IMG/VR virus record: IMGVR_UViG_3300028591_000078
Location: 32,001 to 96,000 of that record
DNA length: 64,000 nt
Reading direction: 5' to 3' (one strand)
Source of the DNA: a virus
Taxonomy: Duplodnaviria > Caudoviricetes
Under the pieces are notes generated by a model. The model did not search any database and had not been told where the DNA came from. It worked only from the letters and a program-made list of their open reading frames with translations. A program made the translations under genes and the position numbers. Of the stretch, positions 47,124 through 53,854 are shown in pieces. The number at the start of each line of letters is the position of its first letter. Position 1 is the first letter of the stretch.

Positions 47124-49061
47124 ATGTTATTAAAAGATTATCCAGAAGGATATGATCTAACCTTAATGAATACAATGTTTAGGTTCGGAGAGAAAGATCC
47201 GATAACTGATAAGTGGACAGAAAGTTCAATAGATTTGATTATTAAAGATAATCATACAGGAGATAAGTTTGTAGAACATATAGAGAATCCTGATTATGAA
47301 TTCTATATATCTAAAGAAGAACTTCCTCATCATATGTTTTTCATAGATAAGGATGAGTGTGAGAAGATAGTAGTTCCATATAAGAATGTATTAAGGACTA
47401 TAGCGGATTTGACTGGAAACACAAATATGTTCTTCGAGAATATAAGGAATGGATTAAGTAAAGCTAATAAAATACTTCATCAACATCCGAGAGTATTCTT
47501 ATCTGATATGGATATAGAAGATCATTACATGTTTAGATTTGCTAGAGATTATACTAATAGTATTAATCCTATATCTAAAGCATTCTTCGATATAGAGGTT
47601 GACTCAATCAATATGATTGGAGATTTTCCAGAGTTTGGAGAGTGTCCAGTAAATGCAGTATCATTGATAGATGAGTCTAATAATATGGTATATGTATTCT
47701 TCTTAAGGAATGAAGCTAATCCTCTTATAGAGGAGTTTGAGAAGAGTATAGGACCAGAATTAATCAAAGAGTTAAAAGAGTTTCTGACTAATGCAGTAGG
47801 TGGTTGGAAACAAGCTCATAGATTTGGTATAGATACTCTTGATTTCAAATTCTTAGCATATGATGAAAAAGATGAGATCAAGTTAATAGCAGATCTGTTT
47901 AGAGCAATCAATATATTAAAGCCAGACTTTGTATTGGCATGGAATATGGGATTTGATATTCCATATATAATAGAGAGAATCAAGGCTTTAGGATATGATC
48001 CTAAAGATATAATGTGCCATCCAGATTTTCCGGTTAAAGAGGCATATTATGTGATAGATGAGAAAAATAAAAATGAGTTTGCAGAGAGAAACGACTTTGC
48101 AAGGATTAGTTCTTATTCAGTATTTTTAGATCAGCTTATACAGTTTGCATCTAGAAGAAAAGGACAGTCGGCAGTAAAGTCTTATTCTCTGGATGATATA
48201 GGAGATATGGTAGCAGGAGTTAGAAAGTTGAGCTATAAGCATATAACTACTAAGATTGCTGAGTTGCCATATAAAGATTATAAGACATTCATATTCTATA
48301 ATATCATGGATACTATAGTACAGAAGTGTATTGAAAAGAAGACTGGTGATATAGATTTCGTATTTAATAAAGCGATTACAAATAACACCAGATATTCTAA
48401 GATACATCGTCAGACTGTATATCTGGCTAATAGAGCCATTGCTCATTTCTATTCATTAGGATATGTAATGGGTAATAATATTAATGGTGGTAATAAGCCA
48501 GTTAAGTTTGCAGGAGCCTTTGTAGCAGATCCGAAGAAAGCATCTAATTATTCTAGGATAAAGGTTAATGGTATACCTATCAATGCTTATAATAATCTAA
48601 ATGACTTTGACTATAATAGACTTTATCCGAGTATAACTCAGGAGTTTAATATGGCTCCGAATACTCAATATGGTAAGGTTACGATAGTAGATCAGATGGA
48701 TCCGAATGAGAATAGATTTAATAGTGATGTATGGGAAAGACAGATTCAGTATATGGAAGATCTTCAGTCTAATGTATATATAGAATTCTGTCATAGATGG
48801 CTTGGTTTGGCAAGTTATAGTGAACTCATTGATGATATCTTAGAGTATTTTTATACTATAAGAATGAGTCAAAGGCCTATACAAGTATTTAATACTGAAG
48901 GAAAAATAAAACCATTCGAAAGTATACCAGTAAATGGTAAACTTAATCCATTCATTCATATGGATAATATTATAGTAAAGCCATTTGAGCATTATTATCC
49001 ATTAGATCTATCATTAAAGGAGAAAGTGATCAATGCAGTCAATAGTACCAATAGATTTTAG
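47124..49061 (+). CDS. Family-B DNA polymerase, N-terminal subunit (3'-5' exonuclease plus motif A)
   Basis: ExoI FFDIEVD, ExoII AWNMGFDIPYI, ExoIII YNIMD, motif A DFDYNRLYPSI; motifs B (KxxxNSxYG) and C (DTDS) absent. Confidence 0.85.
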   Translation: MLLKDYPEGYDLTLMNTMFRFGEKDPITDKWTESSIDLIIKDNHTGDKFVEHIENPDYEFYISKEELPHHMFFIDKDECEKIVVPYKNVLRTIADLTGNTNMFFENIRNGLSKANKILHQHPRVFLSDMDIEDHYMFRFARDYTNSINPISKAFFDIEVDSINMIGDFPEFGECPVNAVSLIDESNNMVYVFFLRNEANPLIEEFEKSIGPELIKELKEFLTNAVGGWKQAHRFGIDTLDFKFLAYDEKDEIKLIADLFRAINILKPDFVLAWNMGFDIPYIIERIKALGYDPKDIMCHPDFPVKEAYYVIDEKNKNEFAERNDFARISSYSVFLDQLIQFASRRKGQSAVKSYSLDDIGDMVAGVRKLSYKHITTKIAELPYKDYKTFIFYNIMDTIVQKCIEKKTGDIDFVFNKAITNNTRYSKIHRQTVYLANRAIAHFYSLGYVMGNNINGGNKPVKFAGAFVADPKKASNYSRIKVNGIPINAYNNLNDFDYNRLYPSITQEFNMAPNTQYGKVTIVDQMDPNENRFNSDVWERQIQYMEDLQSNVYIEFCHRWLGLASYSELIDDILEYFYTIRMSQRPIQVFNTEGKIKPFESIPVNGKLNPFIHMDNIIVKPFEHYYPLDLSLKEKVINAVNSTNRF

Positions 49062-49686
49062 TATAGTAGAGAGATTGAAAGAAGTTTTCACTCTATTTAA
49101 AGTAATAGACTTCGCCATCATAGAAGGTGGCGGAGTTAATATATATGGTATGAATTATGAGCATAGTATCTTAAAATATACAGTCATAGATCCTATAGCA
49201 GGATTACCGCCACTAGTGATAATAGACTCTTCATCTTTAGCACCAGCTAAATATAAAGAACAGAAATACTTCTTAGTAAACTCTACGGTTATAGTAGCAG
49301 AGTCAGAATTATCTGAATTAGACTTTGTATTCTATTATCAGCATATCTATTCTGGGTACTCTGAAGCTAAGAGTTTATTTAAAGAGATTGCAATCTCCAA
49401 TATAACTTGCCATATAGAGCATATTCAGAAAGAAGCTAGTTTTGCTATGCAGATCTTATCTATGAGAGCTGCAGATGGCGTACAATACTATAAGTATAAT
49501 GGATATATGATGTCCTTATTTGTAGGAATTCTTCCTATAATATCTTCTGATGATGTACAGTTAGATATTATAGATAGACCAGATAATCCATGCTTTATAG
49601 GACGCTTTACAATAAAAAAGAAAAATGGTTTGGTATTAAAAGTATTTCTTAGATTTCTAAAGATAGGAATGAACCCTGTAGCGTAA
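49033..49686 (+). CDS. Hypothetical protein coupled to the DNA polymerase gene
   Basis: 217 aa, overlaps the polymerase 3' end, AAGGAG RBS. Confidence 0.7.
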   Translation: MQSIVPIDFSIVERLKEVFTLFKVIDFAIIEGGGVNIYGMNYEHSILKYTVIDPIAGLPPLVIIDSSSLAPAKYKEQKYFLVNSTVIVAESELSELDFVFYYQHIYSGYSEAKSLFKEIAISNITCHIEHIQKEASFAMQILSMRAADGVQYYKYNGYMMSLFVGILPIISSDDVQLDIIDRPDNPCFIGRFTIKKKNGLVLKVFLRFLKIGMNPVA

Positions 49687-49696
49687 TGCTACAGGG
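49674..49696. terminator. Hairpin separating the polymerase operon from the repeat array
   Basis: CCCTGTAGC-GTAAT-GCTACAGGG; T-rich flanks on both strands. Confidence 0.65.
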
Positions 49697-49703
49697 CCAT
49701 TTT

Positions 49704-51493
49704 TAATTCTTTACGTGCTTATGATAATTAATTATGACTAATTCATTATGAAATCCTGATACTTAATTTACGATAATTCATTATTGACGAATTGATAATT
49801 ATTTCAAATTAATTCATTAGATCATGTTGATATTTAAATCACATTAATTTATTAGTTGTGCGTGATATTTACGTATTGTTAATTCATTAGATTAGGTTGA
49901 TACTTAAATCACATTAATTCATTATGGCACCATGATATTTAAGAATTTTTGATTTAATATTGATATTTAATAATTCTTTACAGCTTCTTGATATTTAACA
50001 GCTTATGACTCAATAGTGTATATTGATATATATTCGCTGTTGGTTCTTTAGACAGAGGAGATACTTAAAGCATAGTAATTCATTAAATAGATTTGATAAT
50101 TAATACTTGCTAATTCATTAAAAGATAGCGATACTTATAATCAGGTAATTCATTAAAACTGCTTGATATTTAGTCCACAATAATTTATTTTATCACTAAT
50201 CTGATATGATACTTTGAACCGATTAACTCTTTAGTAGTCTTTGATAATTTAAAGTAATTGATTCATTTACGATTTTTGATGGTTATATATAAATGATTCT
50301 ATAGCTGCCTGATGATACTTAGAGTATGATAATTCATTACAAGTTACTGATAATTTACCTCCTAATAATTCTATACCTCCAACTGATATTTAAATGAATA
50401 TGGTTCATTAGCGCAAATTGATATTTACGGATCAGTAATTCTTTATATGGTAATGATACTTATGAGCATGTAATTCGATAATCGCTTTTGATATGTAATA
50501 ATGTCTGGCTCATTTAATGTTAATGATACCTACACCATTGTAATTCATTAATGATTATTGATATTTAAAACTTTTTGATTCATTAGTATTCATTGATATA
50601 ACCTTATATTCTTATAATTCTATACCTCCAGTTGATACTATAAATACTATGGCTCATTAAAGCAAATTGATACTTACAAATCGCTGATTCATTATCGCAC
50701 CCTGATACTTACAGATTAATAATTCATTATCGCACCCCTGATATTTATTTACCGGTGATTCATTACATTTATTTGATGCATACATGTCAATAATTCATTA
50801 ACATACCTTGATATTTATTTACTGGTGATTCATTAGCTCATATTGATACTTAAAATTCGGTAATTTATTAATTTTATTTGATACTTTCTTTTCTTCAATT
50901 CTTTAACGTAATATGATAATTGCCTTCCTGTGAATCATTATAATATAGTGATACTTATAAAAAGGTGATTCATATTCTTTACGGCGACTTGATAGTTATT
51001 TCTGCTTAACTCATTAACACTGGTTGATATTTACTTGCCTGTGATTCATTAGCTCCAAATGATACTTATGTTTATGTGGTTCATTACTATAATATGATAT
51101 TTTGAATTCACTAATTTATTTAAATTTGTTTGATTCATTATCTATTCCTGATACTTATATCAAACTGTTTCATTGTGCGTTCATGATATTTAGATTTGTT
51201 TGATTCATTTCATATCTATGATATTTTGTGGATTATGATTCAATAGCGTTTCATTGATGCTTATTTTTGTATAATTCATTAAAAGTAAATGATACTTACT
51301 ACCTTTTTGATTCATTACCTTTCGTTTGATGTTTAAGTTCCATTAACTCATTATGCGGCTGTGATATTTACTATTTTTTAATTCATTAAATCGTTTTGAT
51401 ACTTATACAAAATTGGATCTTTTTGTTACATTGATACATATAAAAGTATAATTCAATTTGTACTAATGATACTTAGTGATGCATGATTCATTA
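49704..51493. repeat. Dual-repeat tandem array of ~51 x 35-bp units: T(A/G)ATTCATTA-N8-TGATA(C/T)TTA-N8 (TIGR-like architecture)
   Basis: Parsed by eye, e.g. TAATTCATTA TGAAATCC TGATACTTA ATTTACGA / TAATTCATTA GATCATGT TGATATTTA AATCACAT / TGATTCATTA GCTCCAAA TGATACTTA TGTTTATG. No ORF >=60 aa; the period is not a multiple of 3. Confidence 0.92.
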
Positions 51494-51503
51494 ATATAAT
51501 ATA
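51488..51503 (-). promoter_or_regulatory. Early-type promoter motif pointing into the array
   Basis: Minus strand reads TATATTAT-ATTAA-TGA, the same core as the other early-type promoters. Confidence 0.55.
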
Positions 51504-51574
51504 CAGCCCAAAAACCCTTTATTTACGAAAAGGTGAACATATTAATAATCTATAGAAAGGAGCTGATTATAACA

Positions 51575-53854
51575 ATGGCCGATAAAAAGACTGATCAGGA
51601 AAAGAAATCAGCAAAGCGTATTAATAAACTTGCTGAACTGATCCAGTCCAATATGGACAAATTATATCAGACTACTTACTATTCAAATCCTACTAATAAG
51701 AAGGATTTGGATAATATAAAAAGTAAAATTGATGCATCTATCGGAAGTATAGTATCTAATAATGTAGATACTATAGGCCTTCCTAGTATATCTAAAATGT
51801 ATGCTAGAACCTTCGAGAAGAATAGAATGGCCGATGAAGAGTCTAGCAGAAAACTTCAGGAGATGCTTTCAGATAAAGCTTTGGTAGATACTACACTTGC
51901 TACCTTTGCTCAGAATAGTAAGTTAGCAGATCTTGATAATAAGATAGATACAATCTTAAAATATATGCCCAGGCTTCAGGAAGCCTTGGATGTAAGAAAA
52001 GATAATGTACTATCTGCAGACCACTTTAACAAAGACTATATCACTATTACTAGTGCTGAAACTATATCAACTTCAGATGTCTTCAATAAGAGACTTAAAG
52101 AAATAAAACAGAAGTATAAACTTCTTGAGTTCTTTGAAGATGCATACGATGAGACTGCTAAGTATGGTGAGTATTTTGTATATAATGTACCTTATAAGAG
52201 AGCTATAACAAAGCTCTTACAGACTAAAGCTCAATCTCAGGTATATACAGCAACTCTTAAGACTGAGAGTATGGATATAACCTCTGAGATTAGAGATACA
52301 GTTCAGATGCCTGCTACAGAACTCTTTACTGATAATGATAAAAACTATAATATCAATCTTCAGATTAATAGATCTGGTATGCTGATAGAAACTATAGAGA
52401 GTTTTAAACAGGTTGATGATAAACTTAATGCTCTTAGGGAACAGTCTCTTTGTTATATACGTGAAGATAAGATCGAGAATATTACAGATATAGGAAAGAA
52501 GACTAAACCATCTTTATATATAGATGATGGATTTATGCCAGATGATCTTGATTTCAGTGGTTTTGATGATACTGCTACCGATGGTCTTATTACAGGAGTA
52601 AAAGATAAGGGTGAAAAGAAGATCAAGATCGATGTCCCTGGATGTATTATCAAGAAACTTGATAGAAGACAGATCATTCCTATCTATATAGAAGATAGTT
52701 GTATGGGTTATTACTACATAGAGAATATAGATGGAGAAAATATTACTGACTTTACTAAGTTAGAAGACCCATTTATGTCTATGAGAAACAACTCTACTAT
52801 CATACAGAACTCTGAAGCAGATATGAAGAGAGATATGGTTCTTAAATATCTTGCTGGTGAGATGTCTAAGTATATAGATCAGGAGTTCGTTAATAATAAT
52901 CAGGATCTTAGAGCTGAGATATACATGATACTTAAGTATAATGATGTATATAATACTCCTAATAGTAACTTTAGAGTTACATTCCTTCCTCCTGAAGATG
53001 TAACTCATATATACTTTAGAAAAGATCCTAAGACTCATAGAGGAATCTCTGACCTTGATAGATCTATAATACCTGGTACTTTATATGCATCTCTTTATAT
53101 TACTGATGCTATAGCGGCTATGACTAGATCTCAGGATAAGAGAGTATACTATGTAAAGCAGACTGTGGATACTAATATTGCTAAGACTCTTCTTACTACT
53201 ATAGAGCAGATCAAGAAGAATAACTTCAATATTAGGCAGATTGAGAACGTAAACCATATCCTCAATATTACAGGACGATTCAATGACTATGTAATTCCTA
53301 TGAGCCCTTCTGGAGAGGCTCCTATAACTATGGAAGTTATGCAGGGTCAGCAGGTTAATAGTCATGATGATCTTCTTAATAGACTTGAGGAAATGGCAAT
53401 CAATCCTACAGATGTACCTCTTGAACTTATTCAGGCTAGACAGTCTATAGACTATGCTGTACAATATACTATGTCTAATAGTAAATTCTTACGTAAGGTC
53501 TATAAGAGACAGGCTCAATATGAACCTTTCATGTCTCTCATTATTACTAAGATCTATAACTATGAGTATGATGAGAGTGTTCAGCTTGAAATAAAGCTTC
53601 CTCCTCCGATGTTCTTGAATATCACAAATACTAATCAGATAATGATGAATACAAACGATTTTGCTCAGGCTGTTGCAGACATATACTTGTCTAATGAACC
53701 TGACGATGTGACAAAGAATATCTTCACTAAGAAGCTTAAATTAGAGCTCTTGGGAAGCTATATTGATGTAGGTAACCTTGAACACCTGCTTAATATAGCT
53801 AAACAGGAAACCTCTATAGAACGAGACGAAGCTAAGTTAAAGCAGGAAGAATAA
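51575..53854 (+). CDS. Portal protein (T4 gp20-like)
   Basis: Likely ATG 51575 with AAGGAG RBS and late promoter at 51536; KYGEYFVY, RSQDKRVYYV and NDYVIP resemble gp20-type RAPERRVFYI / EDYWLP. Confidence 0.75.
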   Translation: MADKKTDQEKKSAKRINKLAELIQSNMDKLYQTTYYSNPTNKKDLDNIKSKIDASIGSIVSNNVDTIGLPSISKMYARTFEKNRMADEESSRKLQEMLSDKALVDTTLATFAQNSKLADLDNKIDTILKYMPRLQEALDVRKDNVLSADHFNKDYITITSAETISTSDVFNKRLKEIKQKYKLLEFFEDAYDETAKYGEYFVYNVPYKRAITKLLQTKAQSQVYTATLKTESMDITSEIRDTVQMPATELFTDNDKNYNINLQINRSGMLIETIESFKQVDDKLNALREQSLCYIREDKIENITDIGKKTKPSLYIDDGFMPDDLDFSGFDDTATDGLITGVKDKGEKKIKIDVPGCIIKKLDRRQIIPIYIEDSCMGYYYIENIDGENITDFTKLEDPFMSMRNNSTIIQNSEADMKRDMVLKYLAGEMSKYIDQEFVNNNQDLRAEIYMILKYNDVYNTPNSNFRVTFLPPEDVTHIYFRKDPKTHRGISDLDRSIIPGTLYASLYITDAIAAMTRSQDKRVYYVKQTVDTNIAKTLLTTIEQIKKNNFNIRQIENVNHILNITGRFNDYVIPMSPSGEAPITMEVMQGQQVNSHDDLLNRLEEMAINPTDVPLELIQARQSIDYAVQYTMSNSKFLRKVYKRQAQYEPFMSLIITKIYNYEYDESVQLEIKLPPPMFLNITNTNQIMMNTNDFAQAVADIYLSNEPDDVTKNIFTKKLKLELLGSYIDVGNLEHLLNIAKQETSIERDEAKLKQEE

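What the first reader, a model, noticed from the sequence alone, without database searches (positions are those of the whole stretch)
49704..51493. Orphan TIGR-like dual-spacer array: ~51 units of box1-N8-box2-N8, a candidate guide-RNA array
SEEN: 1.8 kb of non-coding DNA made of 35-bp units. Box 1 T(A/G)ATTCATTA (10 nt) and box 2 TGATA(C/T)TTA (9 nt) alternate almost without exception. Each box is followed by a segment nearly always 8 nt long (occasionally 9) whose sequence differs in almost every unit, giving about 100 variable segments. The two boxes resemble each other (TGA...TTA), so each unit is pseudo-symmetric. Conserved boxes with fixed-length but free-sequence inserts are not what ordinary satellite decay produces. 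KNOWN: TIGR-Tas systems of phages use arrays of ~36-nt units with alternating edge/loop repeats and two ~9-nt spacers, bound by dimeric Nop-domain proteins; CRISPR repeats and spacers are much longer. INFERENCE: this is a TIGR-related or new split-guide RNA array with shorter (8+8) spacers and AT-rich boxes. Neither flanking gene (217-aa ORF, portal) shows a Nop-domain signature, so any effector would be encoded elsewhere or be of a new type. The main alternative is a DNA-level iteron/centromere-like protein-binding array next to the DNA polymerase gene.
Basis: partly seen in the sequence, partly recalled or inferred. Interest (0 to 1): 0.93.

Follow-up and report, generated by a model that had tools for sequence, protein, structure and literature searches.

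The report
Detached giant TIGR guide-RNA array
This 1.8-kb repeat block is one of two very large TIGR guide-RNA arrays of a 238-kb sheep-gut phage; their nuclease-free Tas protein is encoded 21 kb away, so a known RNA-guided system can keep its guides far from its effector gene.

Summary
Window 49704-51493 holds about 52 units of 35 nt: a 10-nt and a 9-nt box alternate, separated by 8-nt segments that are nearly all different.

It is a dual-repeat TIGR array and is orphan only locally. The genome has a second array of about 70 units with the same boxes. It also has one Tas gene (P0002, 521 aa), about 21 kb from each array and outside the window.
- P0002 matches NCBIfam TIGR_Tas_endo at E 1e-22.
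- Its model superposes on TasH (Z 15.0) and TasR (Z 14.2).
- It keeps the Y/H tigRNA-processing dyad.
- It has no detectable nuclease domain, so it is TasA-like.

By homology to arrays next to tas in related phages, the sense strand is the minus strand (edge TAATGAATYA, loop TAARTATCA). A conserved leader lies on the portal side and a hairpin on the other.

Related phages keep both array loci, the leader and the box frame. Their spacers are replaced: 40% are shared where the flanking protein is 99% identical, and none at 81% or below.

Targets are unknown and no self-targeting was found. Transcription and processing are inferred. The scan had already noted the sister array and this same stretch in the same genome. 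Verdict: a new organisational variant of a known system.

The parts
49704..51493 (-). TIGR array 1: about 52 units of 35 nt. On the sense (minus) strand each unit is edge repeat TAATGAATYA, 8-nt spacer A, loop repeat TAARTATCA, 8-nt spacer B. It starts and ends with an edge repeat.
   Evidence: Sequence; box scan; HMM parse; column statistics; strand assigned by homology to tas-sense arrays.
51494..51555 (-). Conserved leader block directly upstream of the first repeat on the minus strand (core AATAAAGGGTTTTTGG...TATATTAT). It is the presumed array promoter or leader and may also hold the divergent portal promoter.
   Evidence: 75% identical to the flank of array 2 over about 90 nt. Found nowhere else in the genome. 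Conserved in relatives at 99, 81 and 65% at the array-2 locus; by eye also in the L217 and L216 sequences printed.
49674..49696 (.). Palindromic GC-rich hairpin between the 217-aa ORF and the array. It is the + strand terminator of the ORF and the likely end of the minus-strand array transcript, although the T-tract on the minus strand is weak here.
   Evidence: Terminator scan. Fold -23.1 kcal/mol on the minus strand, z -5.2. The equivalent hairpins at array 2 and in sister L217 are followed by T-runs on the minus strand.
49033..49686 (+). 217-aa ORF of unknown function, convergent with the array. It is not the effector.
   Evidence: No hit in Pfam, NCBIfam, PHROGs or PDB sequences. ORFs of 207 and 214 aa occupy the same position in L217 and L216.
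47124..49061 (+). Family-B DNA polymerase, exonuclease part (645 aa). It is the upstream neighbour and the same gene order is kept in the sister phage.
   Evidence: PF03104 at E 1.7e-7. L217 has PolB-exo, a 207-aa ORF, the array and portal in that order.
51575..53854 (+). Portal-like virion protein (759 aa from the ATG at 51575), divergent from the array.
   Evidence: phrog_3004, head and packaging, E 2.7e-23. Relatives at 47-48% identity are named 'Portal protein' by their sources.

Best explanation
The stretch is a dual-repeat TIGR array, one of two in a roughly 97%-complete 238-kb jumbo phage from sheep-gut metagenomes. It serves a Tas protein encoded in trans.

Inferred mechanism:
1. The array is transcribed from the minus strand. 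Transcription starts at a conserved leader next to the portal gene and ends at the hairpin shared with the convergent 217-aa ORF.
2. Dimers of the Tas protein P0002 (genome 104733-106298, + strand, about 21 kb away) bind each unit through the shared UAA...UCA/UYA frame of the edge and loop repeats.
3. The Y465/H472 dyad of P0002 cuts inside the edge repeats and releases tigRNAs of about 35 nt. Each has the form half-edge, spacer A (8 nt), loop, spacer B (8 nt), half-edge.
4. [quoted passage not shown]
5. P0002 has no HNH or RuvC module. The outcome is therefore binding (a block to transcription or replication), not cleavage, as shown experimentally for other TasA proteins.
6. The roughly 120 guides most likely target host or competing mobile-element DNA, not the phage itself.

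Shown here: array anatomy, Tas homology and fold, the processing dyad, strand by homology, the conserved leader, and spacer turnover. Inferred: transcription, processing, binding and the targets.
For: Array architecture fits the published definition of two alternating 8-12-nt repeats with 8-12-nt spacers and a unit of about 36 nt. Here the repeats are 10 and 9 nt, the spacers are 8 nt in 92% of cases, and the unit is 35 nt. The experimentally characterised CGphi29 array is 10+8+10+8.

Effector:
- NF052498 TIGR_Tas_endo hits the genome once, at E 1e-22 over model positions 3-213 of 215. The same model scores SpTasH at 2.9e-34.
- The AF2 model aligns to TasH at Z 15.0 (rmsd 3.3 A, 228 of 238 residues) and to TasR at Z 14.2 (2.4 A, 23% identity). 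IS110 recombinases follow at Z about 9, and unrelated helical proteins at 7.4 or below.
- Y465 and H472 align to the catalytic Y289 and H296 of SpTasH (PMC13421893). Both are at least 90% conserved in the family. This dyad is specific to dual-repeat systems.
- Residues 1-111 are disordered or low-confidence, with no nuclease domain found.

Family association: 229 viral loci encode relatives. Many of the 80 fetched carry a 36-nt array immediately downstream of the gene.

Strand:
- The unit HMM built from the + strand hits the tas-flanking arrays of L210 only on the strand opposite to tas, 32 hits to 0.
- L210 is syntenic: primase 39% identical (E 2e-79) and virion protein 33% identical (E 1e-79).
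- On the minus strand array 2 ends in a 3'-truncated edge repeat, a 15-bp hairpin and U6. Sister L217 likewise ends in a hairpin and T-run.
- The leader block is conserved next to both arrays and at the array-2 locus of three relatives; by eye it recurs at the array-1 locus of L217 and L216.

Selection on boxes rather than spacers:
- Against the 99% relative the mismatch rate is 4.2% in boxes and 15.4% in spacers. Indels are 35, 70, 71 and 105 nt, and 57 of 142 spacers are shared.
- At 81%, 75%, 67% and 65% flank identity the boxes and leader persist, but only 0-1 spacers are shared.
- Strain contigs show deletions of whole units.

A repressor role for nuclease-free Tas proteins is experimentally supported in 10.64898/2026.09.09.750476.
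Against: - There is no direct evidence of transcription or of 35-nt RNAs.
- The NCBIfam score (76-77 bits) is below the curated cut-off of 100.
- Pfam Nop and the IS110 C-terminal models do not hit the genome.
- tas is not adjacent to either array, so the pairing of P0002 with these arrays is inferred. It rests on P0002 being the only Tas in the genome and on L210, where a homologue sits between arrays with the same edge repeat.
- The boxes lack the canonical UG...CCA motifs.
- Box 1 is nearly palindromic, so only part of the unit carries strand information.
- The hairpin at array 1 has a weak T-tract on the minus strand.
- Array 1 contains several degenerate units.
- No target enrichment was found in the DNA available.
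Confidence: 0.82

Rival explanations
1. It is the same TIGR array, but transcribed from the + strand. This is the strand on which the first reader wrote the boxes (UGAUAYUUA and URAUUCAUUA). Transcription would be by read-through from the PolB-exo/217-aa operon.
For: On the + strand both boxes start with UG/UR, like the published box D 'UG', and end in UUA. R at box-1 position 2 could pair with U either as A or as G. [quoted passage not shown] The flanking genes are on the + strand.
Against: The HMM orientation test against tas-sense arrays is 32 hits to 0 for the minus strand. Each array starts immediately after a strong hairpin terminator on the + strand, leaving no room for a promoter. There is no terminator at the + strand 3' end. 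The conserved array-specific block lies at the portal side. Sister L217 has its T-run on the minus strand.
Confidence: 0.1
2. It is a DNA-level protein-binding array. The boxes would be iterons or centromere-like sites for a replication or partition protein, placed next to replication genes, and no guide RNA would be made.
For: Both arrays lie directly downstream of replication genes: PolB-exo and a DnaG-like primase. Conserved boxes with free spacers of fixed length would also suit phased protein binding. Transcription has not been shown.
Against: - About 120 copies with strictly 8-nt hypervariable inserts and two alternating box types match the TIGR definition.
- A Tas protein with the dual-repeat processing dyad is present in the genome.
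- In L210 a Tas homologue sits between arrays that carry the same edge repeat.
- The array has a conserved leader and a terminator, as a transcription unit would.
- Spacers turn over completely between relatives while the frame is kept.
Confidence: 0.04
3. Array 1 is a decaying relic. It would have been left behind when tas moved away, and would no longer be expressed or used; array 2 may still be active.
For: Array 1 is more degenerate than array 2. It has broken phasing at several points, and 17 of 45 parsed box-1 copies have 2 or more mismatches. It lies 21 kb from tas.
Against: The array-1 locus, its leader and its terminator are kept in relatives down to 67% portal identity, with arrays of 0.8-2 kb and fresh spacers. 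Most boxes are intact. Listed strain SNPs fall 13 in spacers and 5 in boxes, although boxes make up 55% of positions. Indels are whole units.
Confidence: 0.06

Closest known systems
Dual-repeat TIGR-Tas systems (Faure et al. 2025, PMC12045711), in particular TIGR-TasA (FpTasA type) and the Salicola phage CGphi29 TIGR-TasH locus
   Same: Alternating edge and loop repeats of 9-10 nt that share start and end motifs. Two 8-nt spacers per unit, as in SpTIGR. A unit of 35-36 nt. A phage host. A Tas protein with the coiled-coil plus Nop fold and the Y/H processing dyad. An array that ends in a truncated edge repeat and a terminator.
   Different: - tas lies about 21 kb from each of two arrays rather than next to one, and on the opposite strand.
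- The arrays have about 52 and 70 units, against 'most often 5-15' and a mean of about 16.
- The repeats are AT-rich (UAA...UCA/UYA) and lack the canonical UG/GA...CCA.
- There is an array-specific conserved leader.
- The Tas protein has a disordered, lysine-rich N-terminal stretch of about 110 aa, large insertions, and no nuclease.
Nuclease-free or nuclease-dead Tas repressors (MbTasA, CsTasR; bioRxiv 10.64898/2026.09.09.750476)
   Same: The effector lacks an active nuclease, so the predicted outcome is RNA-guided DNA binding and transcriptional repression. A disordered N-terminus is described there as typical of TasA.
   Different: The proteins tested there use stem-loop tigRNAs and lack the Y/H loop. 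P0002 has the Y/H dyad and dual-repeat arrays. Repression by P0002 is untested.
CRISPR arrays located far from cas genes (orphan or trans-acting arrays, including those of jumbo phages)
   Same: Guide arrays can be separated from effector genes. Each array has a leader at one end. Spacer content differs between close strains.
   Different: The repeats are 9-10 nt, not 25-36 nt. There are two 8-nt spacers per unit and two alternating repeat types. There are no Cas proteins and no known adaptation module.
Archaeal box C/D sRNAs and IS110 bridge RNAs
   Same: The guide has a tandem-spacer logic and is bound by a Nop-type domain. P0002 aligns structurally to IS110-family recombinases at Z about 9.
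   Different: There are no k-turn C/D boxes and no Rfam match. The units form a tandem array rather than single RNAs. There is no DEDD/RuvC recombinase domain and no fibrillarin partner.

Membership tests
Dual-repeat TIGR array | Two distinct short (8-12 nt) repeats alternate regularly | tested here: met
   The 10-nt and 9-nt boxes alternate at 17/18-nt steps over about 52 units. Array 2 is a single unbroken chain of 141 boxes.
Dual-repeat TIGR array | Two variable spacers of fixed length (8-12 nt) per unit, giving a unit of about 36 nt | tested here: met
   204 of 222 spacers are 8 nt. Spacer columns carry 0.01-0.27 bits. 201 of 204 8-mers are distinct. The unit is 35 nt.
Dual-repeat TIGR array | Edge and loop repeats share box D (start) and box C (end) motifs that covary between the two repeats | tested here: met
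   On the sense strand both repeats begin UAA and end UCA or UYA. The same shared frame persists in relatives while the inner bases drift. The literal UG...CCA motif is absent, and the paper allows divergence provided the two repeats covary.
Dual-repeat TIGR array | A Tas gene lies directly upstream or downstream of the array | tested here: not met
   The flanking genes are a 217-aa unknown ORF and portal. The only tas gene lies about 21 kb away. The intergenic gaps around tas are 132 and 93 nt, too small for an array.
Dual-repeat TIGR array | A Tas (Nop-domain) protein is encoded in the same genome | tested here: met
   NF052498 at E 1e-22. Structural Z 15.0 to TasH and 14.2 to TasR.
Dual-repeat TIGR array | [quoted passage not shown] | tested here: met
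   Array 2 on the minus strand ends TAATGAA, then a 15-bp hairpin, then U6. L217 ends in a hairpin and T-run. Array 1 ends in a full degenerate edge repeat followed by a hairpin 7 nt later, with a weak T-tract.
Dual-repeat TIGR array | The array is transcribed and processed into unit-length tigRNAs bound by Tas | not testable with these tools
   This needs small-RNA-seq or an RNP pull-down.
Tas protein family (TasA class) | Coiled-coil plus Nop-type C-terminal domain fold | tested here: met
   VIA-align gives Z 15.0 at rmsd 3.3 A over 228 of 238 TasH residues. The ten best Foldseek PDB hits are all TasH or TasR.
Tas protein family (TasA class) | Score above the curated NCBIfam cut-off for TIGR_Tas_endo (100 bits) | tested here: not met
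   The score is 76-77 bits at E 1e-22 to 3.5e-21, with full-length model coverage. The protein is a divergent member.
Tas protein family (TasA class) | C-terminal Y/H dyad of dual-repeat-processing Tas proteins | tested here: met
   Y465 and H472 align with Y289 and H296 of SpTasH. Both are at least 90% conserved among 13 homologues.
Tas protein family (TasA class) | No HNH or RuvC nuclease domain (this defines TasA as against TasH and TasR) | tested here: inconclusive
   No Pfam nuclease hit. The structural alignment starts after the HNH domain of TasH. Residues 1-111 are of low confidence. The insertions were not folded separately.
CRISPR array | One repeat type of about 25-36 nt with spacers of about 30 nt | tested here: not met
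   There are two repeat types of 9-10 nt and the spacers are 8 nt.
Box C/D sRNA | C (RUGAUGA) and D (CUGA) boxes that form k-turns; a match to Rfam models | tested here: not met
   No Rfam match on either strand at E 1 or below, apart from a chance trpB hit in the flank.
Iteron / centromere-like DNA repeat array | Repeats bound as dsDNA by a cognate initiator or partition protein | not testable with these tools
   This needs footprinting or a replication/partition assay. The context (leader, terminator, Tas) argues against it.

The most novel reading that the evidence does not exclude
The phage lineage runs a trans-encoded TIGR-TasA system. Two leader-driven arrays with about 120 guides are kept at fixed genome junctions far from tas, and their spacers are renewed unit by unit within strain-level divergence. 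If so, many of the roughly two-thirds of tas loci with no detected array may simply have distant arrays. This near-complete genome and its natural strain series would then be the first setting where TIGR spacer acquisition and natural targets (host silencing or competitor exclusion in the rumen) can be worked out.
Probability: 0.35. Interest if true: 0.78.

Novelty: new variant of a known kind. Interest (0 to 1): 0.62.

Why it matters
TIGR-Tas was described only in 2025. Its natural targets, its biological role and its mode of spacer acquisition are still open, largely because most loci sit on short contigs.

What this case adds:
- It gives full genomic context: a roughly 97%-complete 238-kb phage genome.
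- It has an unusually large guide set, about 120 tigRNAs.
- It shows that arrays can lie more than 20 kb from tas, on the other strand, with their own conserved leader. The published array finder looked only within 10 kb of tas and found arrays at about a third of tas loci.
- It provides a graded series of natural relatives in which boxes and leader are kept while spacers are exchanged in whole units. That is raw material for learning how TIGR arrays grow.

Tried and rejected
1. Pfam Nop (PF01798), Transposase_20 (PF02371) and NCBIfam IS110 (NF033542) six-frame searches of the genome gave no hit. Only NF052498 found the Tas gene.
2. The 217-aa ORF as effector: no family or PDB sequence match, and no homologue in the sister loci by tblastn.
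3. Self-targeting. Both composite geometries, rc(s1)+s2 and s2+rc(s1), were searched against the array-masked genome. There were 0 exact matches. There were 1 and 5 one-mismatch hits against 0.9 and 1.6 expected from shuffled pairs. All fall inside ORFs with no pattern, and I judged them chance.
4. Targets in related-phage loci (107 kb) and other viral loci (2.2 Mb): no enrichment over shuffled pairs.
5. RNA evidence: no RNA holder was listed for either array.
6. A loose two-box scan of viral contigs returned mostly single chance matches. The strict three-box pattern found only L004 in IMG/VR, the same contig in JGI metagenomes, and nothing in 185,579 prokaryotic genomes.
7. The sigma-70 promoter scan was uninformative, at shuffle level.
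8. The whole sister-phage record could not be searched.
9. Megablast of the locus against GenBank phages gave no match.
10. I first took the + strand as sense, because of the UG-like box starts. I rejected this after the orientation test.
11. Host-genome target search was not attempted. The only host hint is a *Pseudobutyrivibrio* MAG label on a sister contig, and the tools cannot search about 110 16-mers against whole host genomes.
Full report
**1. Observation**

Window 49704-51493 is a gene-free 1.8-kb block between a 217-aa ORF and a portal-like gene, both on the + strand. Two boxes alternate at 17/18-nt steps, giving a 35-nt period. On the + strand they read TRATTCATTA and TGATAYTTA. An HMM built from clean units recovers 52 units here.

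Statistics pooled with the sister array:
- Box columns carry 0.5-1.9 bits; spacer columns carry 0.01-0.27 bits.
- 204 of 222 spacers are exactly 8 nt.
- 201 of 204 8-mers are distinct.
- Spacer composition equals that of the genome.

The exact box-1 motif occurs 49 times on the + strand of the genome, 47 of them inside the arrays, and never on the - strand. Array 1 does contain several degenerate or out-of-phase units.

**2. Genome context**

The window is bases 32001-96000 of a 238,365-bp virus record estimated 97% complete. It is found in sheep-gut metagenomes of several studies.

A second array of about 70 units has the same boxes and the same orientation. It lies at genome 126864-129334 as one unbroken chain of 141 boxes. 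Earlier notes of this scan had flagged it.

Both arrays sit at the same kind of junction, with a replication gene upstream and a virion gene downstream, all on the + strand:
- Array 1: PolB-exo and the 217-aa ORF upstream, portal downstream.
- Array 2: a DnaG-like primase upstream, a virion protein (phrog_3013) downstream.

**3. The effector**

Pfam Nop and the IS110-type models find nothing in the genome. As a positive control I fetched Salicola phage CGphi29 (NC_020844, cited in PMC13421893). I identified SpTasH there by identity to the PDB TasH chains. NCBIfam NF052498 (TIGR_Tas_endo) detects SpTasH at 2.9e-34.

NF052498 hits my genome exactly once, at G000:C1:105093-106085 (+). The match has E 1e-22 and 77 bits, covers model positions 3-213 of 215, and is below the curated 100-bit cut-off. 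The gene encodes P0002 (521 aa, genome 104733-106298). It is tightly packed between other genes, so no array adjoins it.

Evidence that P0002 is a Tas protein:
- An AlphaFold model (pLDDT 69.7; the core is well predicted and residues 1-70 are disordered) finds only TasH and TasR among its ten best PDB matches.
- It aligns to TasH at Z 15.0 (rmsd 3.3 A, 228 of 238 residues) and to TasR at Z 14.2 (2.4 A, 23% identity). IS110 recombinases score about 9, and unrelated helical proteins 7.4 or below.
- The alignment starts after the HNH domain of TasH, and no nuclease domain is detectable. P0002 is therefore TasA-like.
- Y465 and H472 align with the catalytic pre-tigRNA-processing dyad Y289/H296 of SpTasH. 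Both are at least 90% conserved in the family.
- That dyad is reported to be specific to dual-repeat systems.

**4. Family association**

229 viral loci encode relatives of P0002. In many of the 80 fetched, a 36-nt periodic dual-repeat array starts right after the gene.

The most telling relative is L210. It is syntenic with my array-2 locus: primase 39% identical (E 2e-79) and virion protein 33% identical (E 1e-79). There the Tas homologue sits between two arrays of about 75 and 23 units. The edge repeat of those arrays, AATGAATYA, is the reverse complement of my box 1.

**5. Strand**

Box 1 is nearly palindromic, so I tested orientation objectively. The unit HMM built from my + strand hits the arrays of L210 only on the strand opposite to tas, 32 hits to 0. 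It also hits the array downstream of tas in L005 in that sense. The sense strand here is therefore the minus strand. The edge repeat is TAATGAATYA and the loop repeat is TAARTATCA. Both have the frame UAA...UCA/UYA, an AT-rich counterpart of the canonical GA...CCA repeats.

Independent support for the minus strand:
- On the minus strand array 2 ends in a 3'-truncated edge repeat, a 15-bp hairpin and U6. Sister L217 ends in a hairpin plus T-run. This matches the published array ending.
- On the + strand each array starts directly after a strong hairpin, with no room for a promoter.
- A block of about 60-90 nt on the portal or virion-gene side is 75% identical between the two arrays. It occurs nowhere else in the genome. 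It is conserved in the relatives at the array-2 locus, and by eye in the L217 and L216 sequences at the array-1 locus. I read it as the array leader or promoter, and it may also hold the divergent virion-gene promoter.

**6. Evolution**

Strain contigs at 95-99% identity lack whole units: 35, 70 and about 105 nt. Listed SNPs fall 13 in spacers and 5 in boxes, although boxes make up 55% of positions.

At the array-2 locus:
- The relative with a 99% identical flanking protein (L214) has about 73 units, and only 57 of 142 spacers are identical to mine.
- The alignment is a mosaic. Some blocks are 96-99% identical, some align only at the boxes, and indels are 35, 70, 71 or 105 nt. One of these is a 105-nt difference at the leader junction.
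- The mismatch rate is 4.2% in boxes and 15.4% in spacers.
- Relatives at 81% and 65% keep the array, the leader and the box frame but share 0-1 spacers.

At the finding's own locus, relatives at 75% and 67% portal identity keep the gene order PolB-exo, an ORF of about 210 aa, the array, then portal. Their arrays are 0.8 and 2.0 kb and share 0-1 spacers with mine.

**7. Function**

By homology, the array is transcribed and bound by P0002 dimers. It is cut in the edge repeats into tigRNAs of about 35 nt, and each of these specifies a 16-bp DNA site through two 8-nt spacers that pair to opposite strands. Without a nuclease the expected result is binding and repression, as shown for other nuclease-free Tas proteins.

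I found no self-targets beyond chance and none in the related-phage DNA at hand. Host DNA or other mobile elements are therefore the likelier targets, which is an inference. The only host hint is a *Pseudobutyrivibrio* MAG label on a sister contig.

**8. Comparison and novelty**

This is a member of the dual-repeat TIGR-Tas family. All testable defining features are met except adjacency of tas and the curated HMM cut-off.

What differs from the published picture:
- The arrays are detached from tas by about 21 kb on each side, and lie on the opposite strand.
- There are two arrays at conserved junctions, each with a leader.
- The arrays are very large, about 52 and 70 units, against 'most often 5-15' and a mean of about 16.
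- The repeats are AT-rich and lack CCA.

The published array finder scanned at most 10 kb around tas and found arrays at about a third of tas loci. Detached arrays like these would have been missed.

I did not find this organisation described in the two key papers or in a full-text search. I cannot exclude that it is catalogued in unpublished resources.

**9. Limits**

- There is no RNA evidence of any kind.
- The pairing of P0002 with these arrays is inferred.
- The target geometry could only be narrowed to two forms.
- The host is unknown.

Noticed in passing
Outside the window: genome 126864-129334 (L001:8864-11334): Second TIGR array of about 70 units (141 boxes in one unbroken chain) with the same boxes and orientation. 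It lies between a DnaG-like primase and a virion protein and is more regular than array 1.
   Followed up: yes
Outside the window: genome 104733-106298 (L003:1141-2706) and the next gene, L003:2799 onwards: The tas gene is followed by a ResIII/DEAD-type helicase. The same tas-helicase pair is kept in sister phages whose Tas is 42-44% identical (L086, L206, L208). It could be plain module synteny or a functional partnership.
   Followed up: partly
L210:6960-9740 and 11230-12060: A related phage contig has tas flanked on both sides by 36-nt arrays of about 75 and 23 units, at the position syntenic to my array 2 but in the opposite orientation relative to the flanking genes. This implies that the array was inverted, or that tas moved, in one lineage.
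   Followed up: partly
L004:6290-6800: A 17-kb, very AT-rich viral contig carries about 15 units with near-identical boxes. One of the two spacer positions is semi-conserved (TTCCTTTTA recurs about 6 times). No Tas gene lies on this fragment.
   Followed up: partly
L214 versus genome 129324: The 99% relative has three extra units (105 nt) exactly at the junction between the leader and the first repeat. The 13 units nearest the terminator differ completely. The direction of the change is unknown, but it bears on how TIGR arrays gain units.
   Followed up: partly
window 47124-49061: The family-B DNA polymerase appears to be split. This ORF carries only the exonuclease part. In the sister phages a separate PolB/divDNApol gene of about 703 aa lies about 3 kb upstream of tas.
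   Followed up: no
L215 (contig starts 74 nt before portal); L216 (run of N inside the array): Metagenome assemblies tend to break or gap at these arrays. Arrays of this kind are therefore probably under-represented in contig collections.
   Followed up: no
P0100 / P0007 contig (60,890 bp): NCBI labels the portal homologue of a sister phage as coming from a *Pseudobutyrivibrio* sp. MAG. This is a weak host hint that fits the rumen or sheep-gut habitat.
   Followed up: no
L213:7655-10000: In the 65% relative the edge repeat has drifted to TAAAGATTCA and the loop repeat to TAAGTATCW, while the UAA...UCA frame is kept. This suggests that the repeats co-evolve with their Tas protein.
   Followed up: partly
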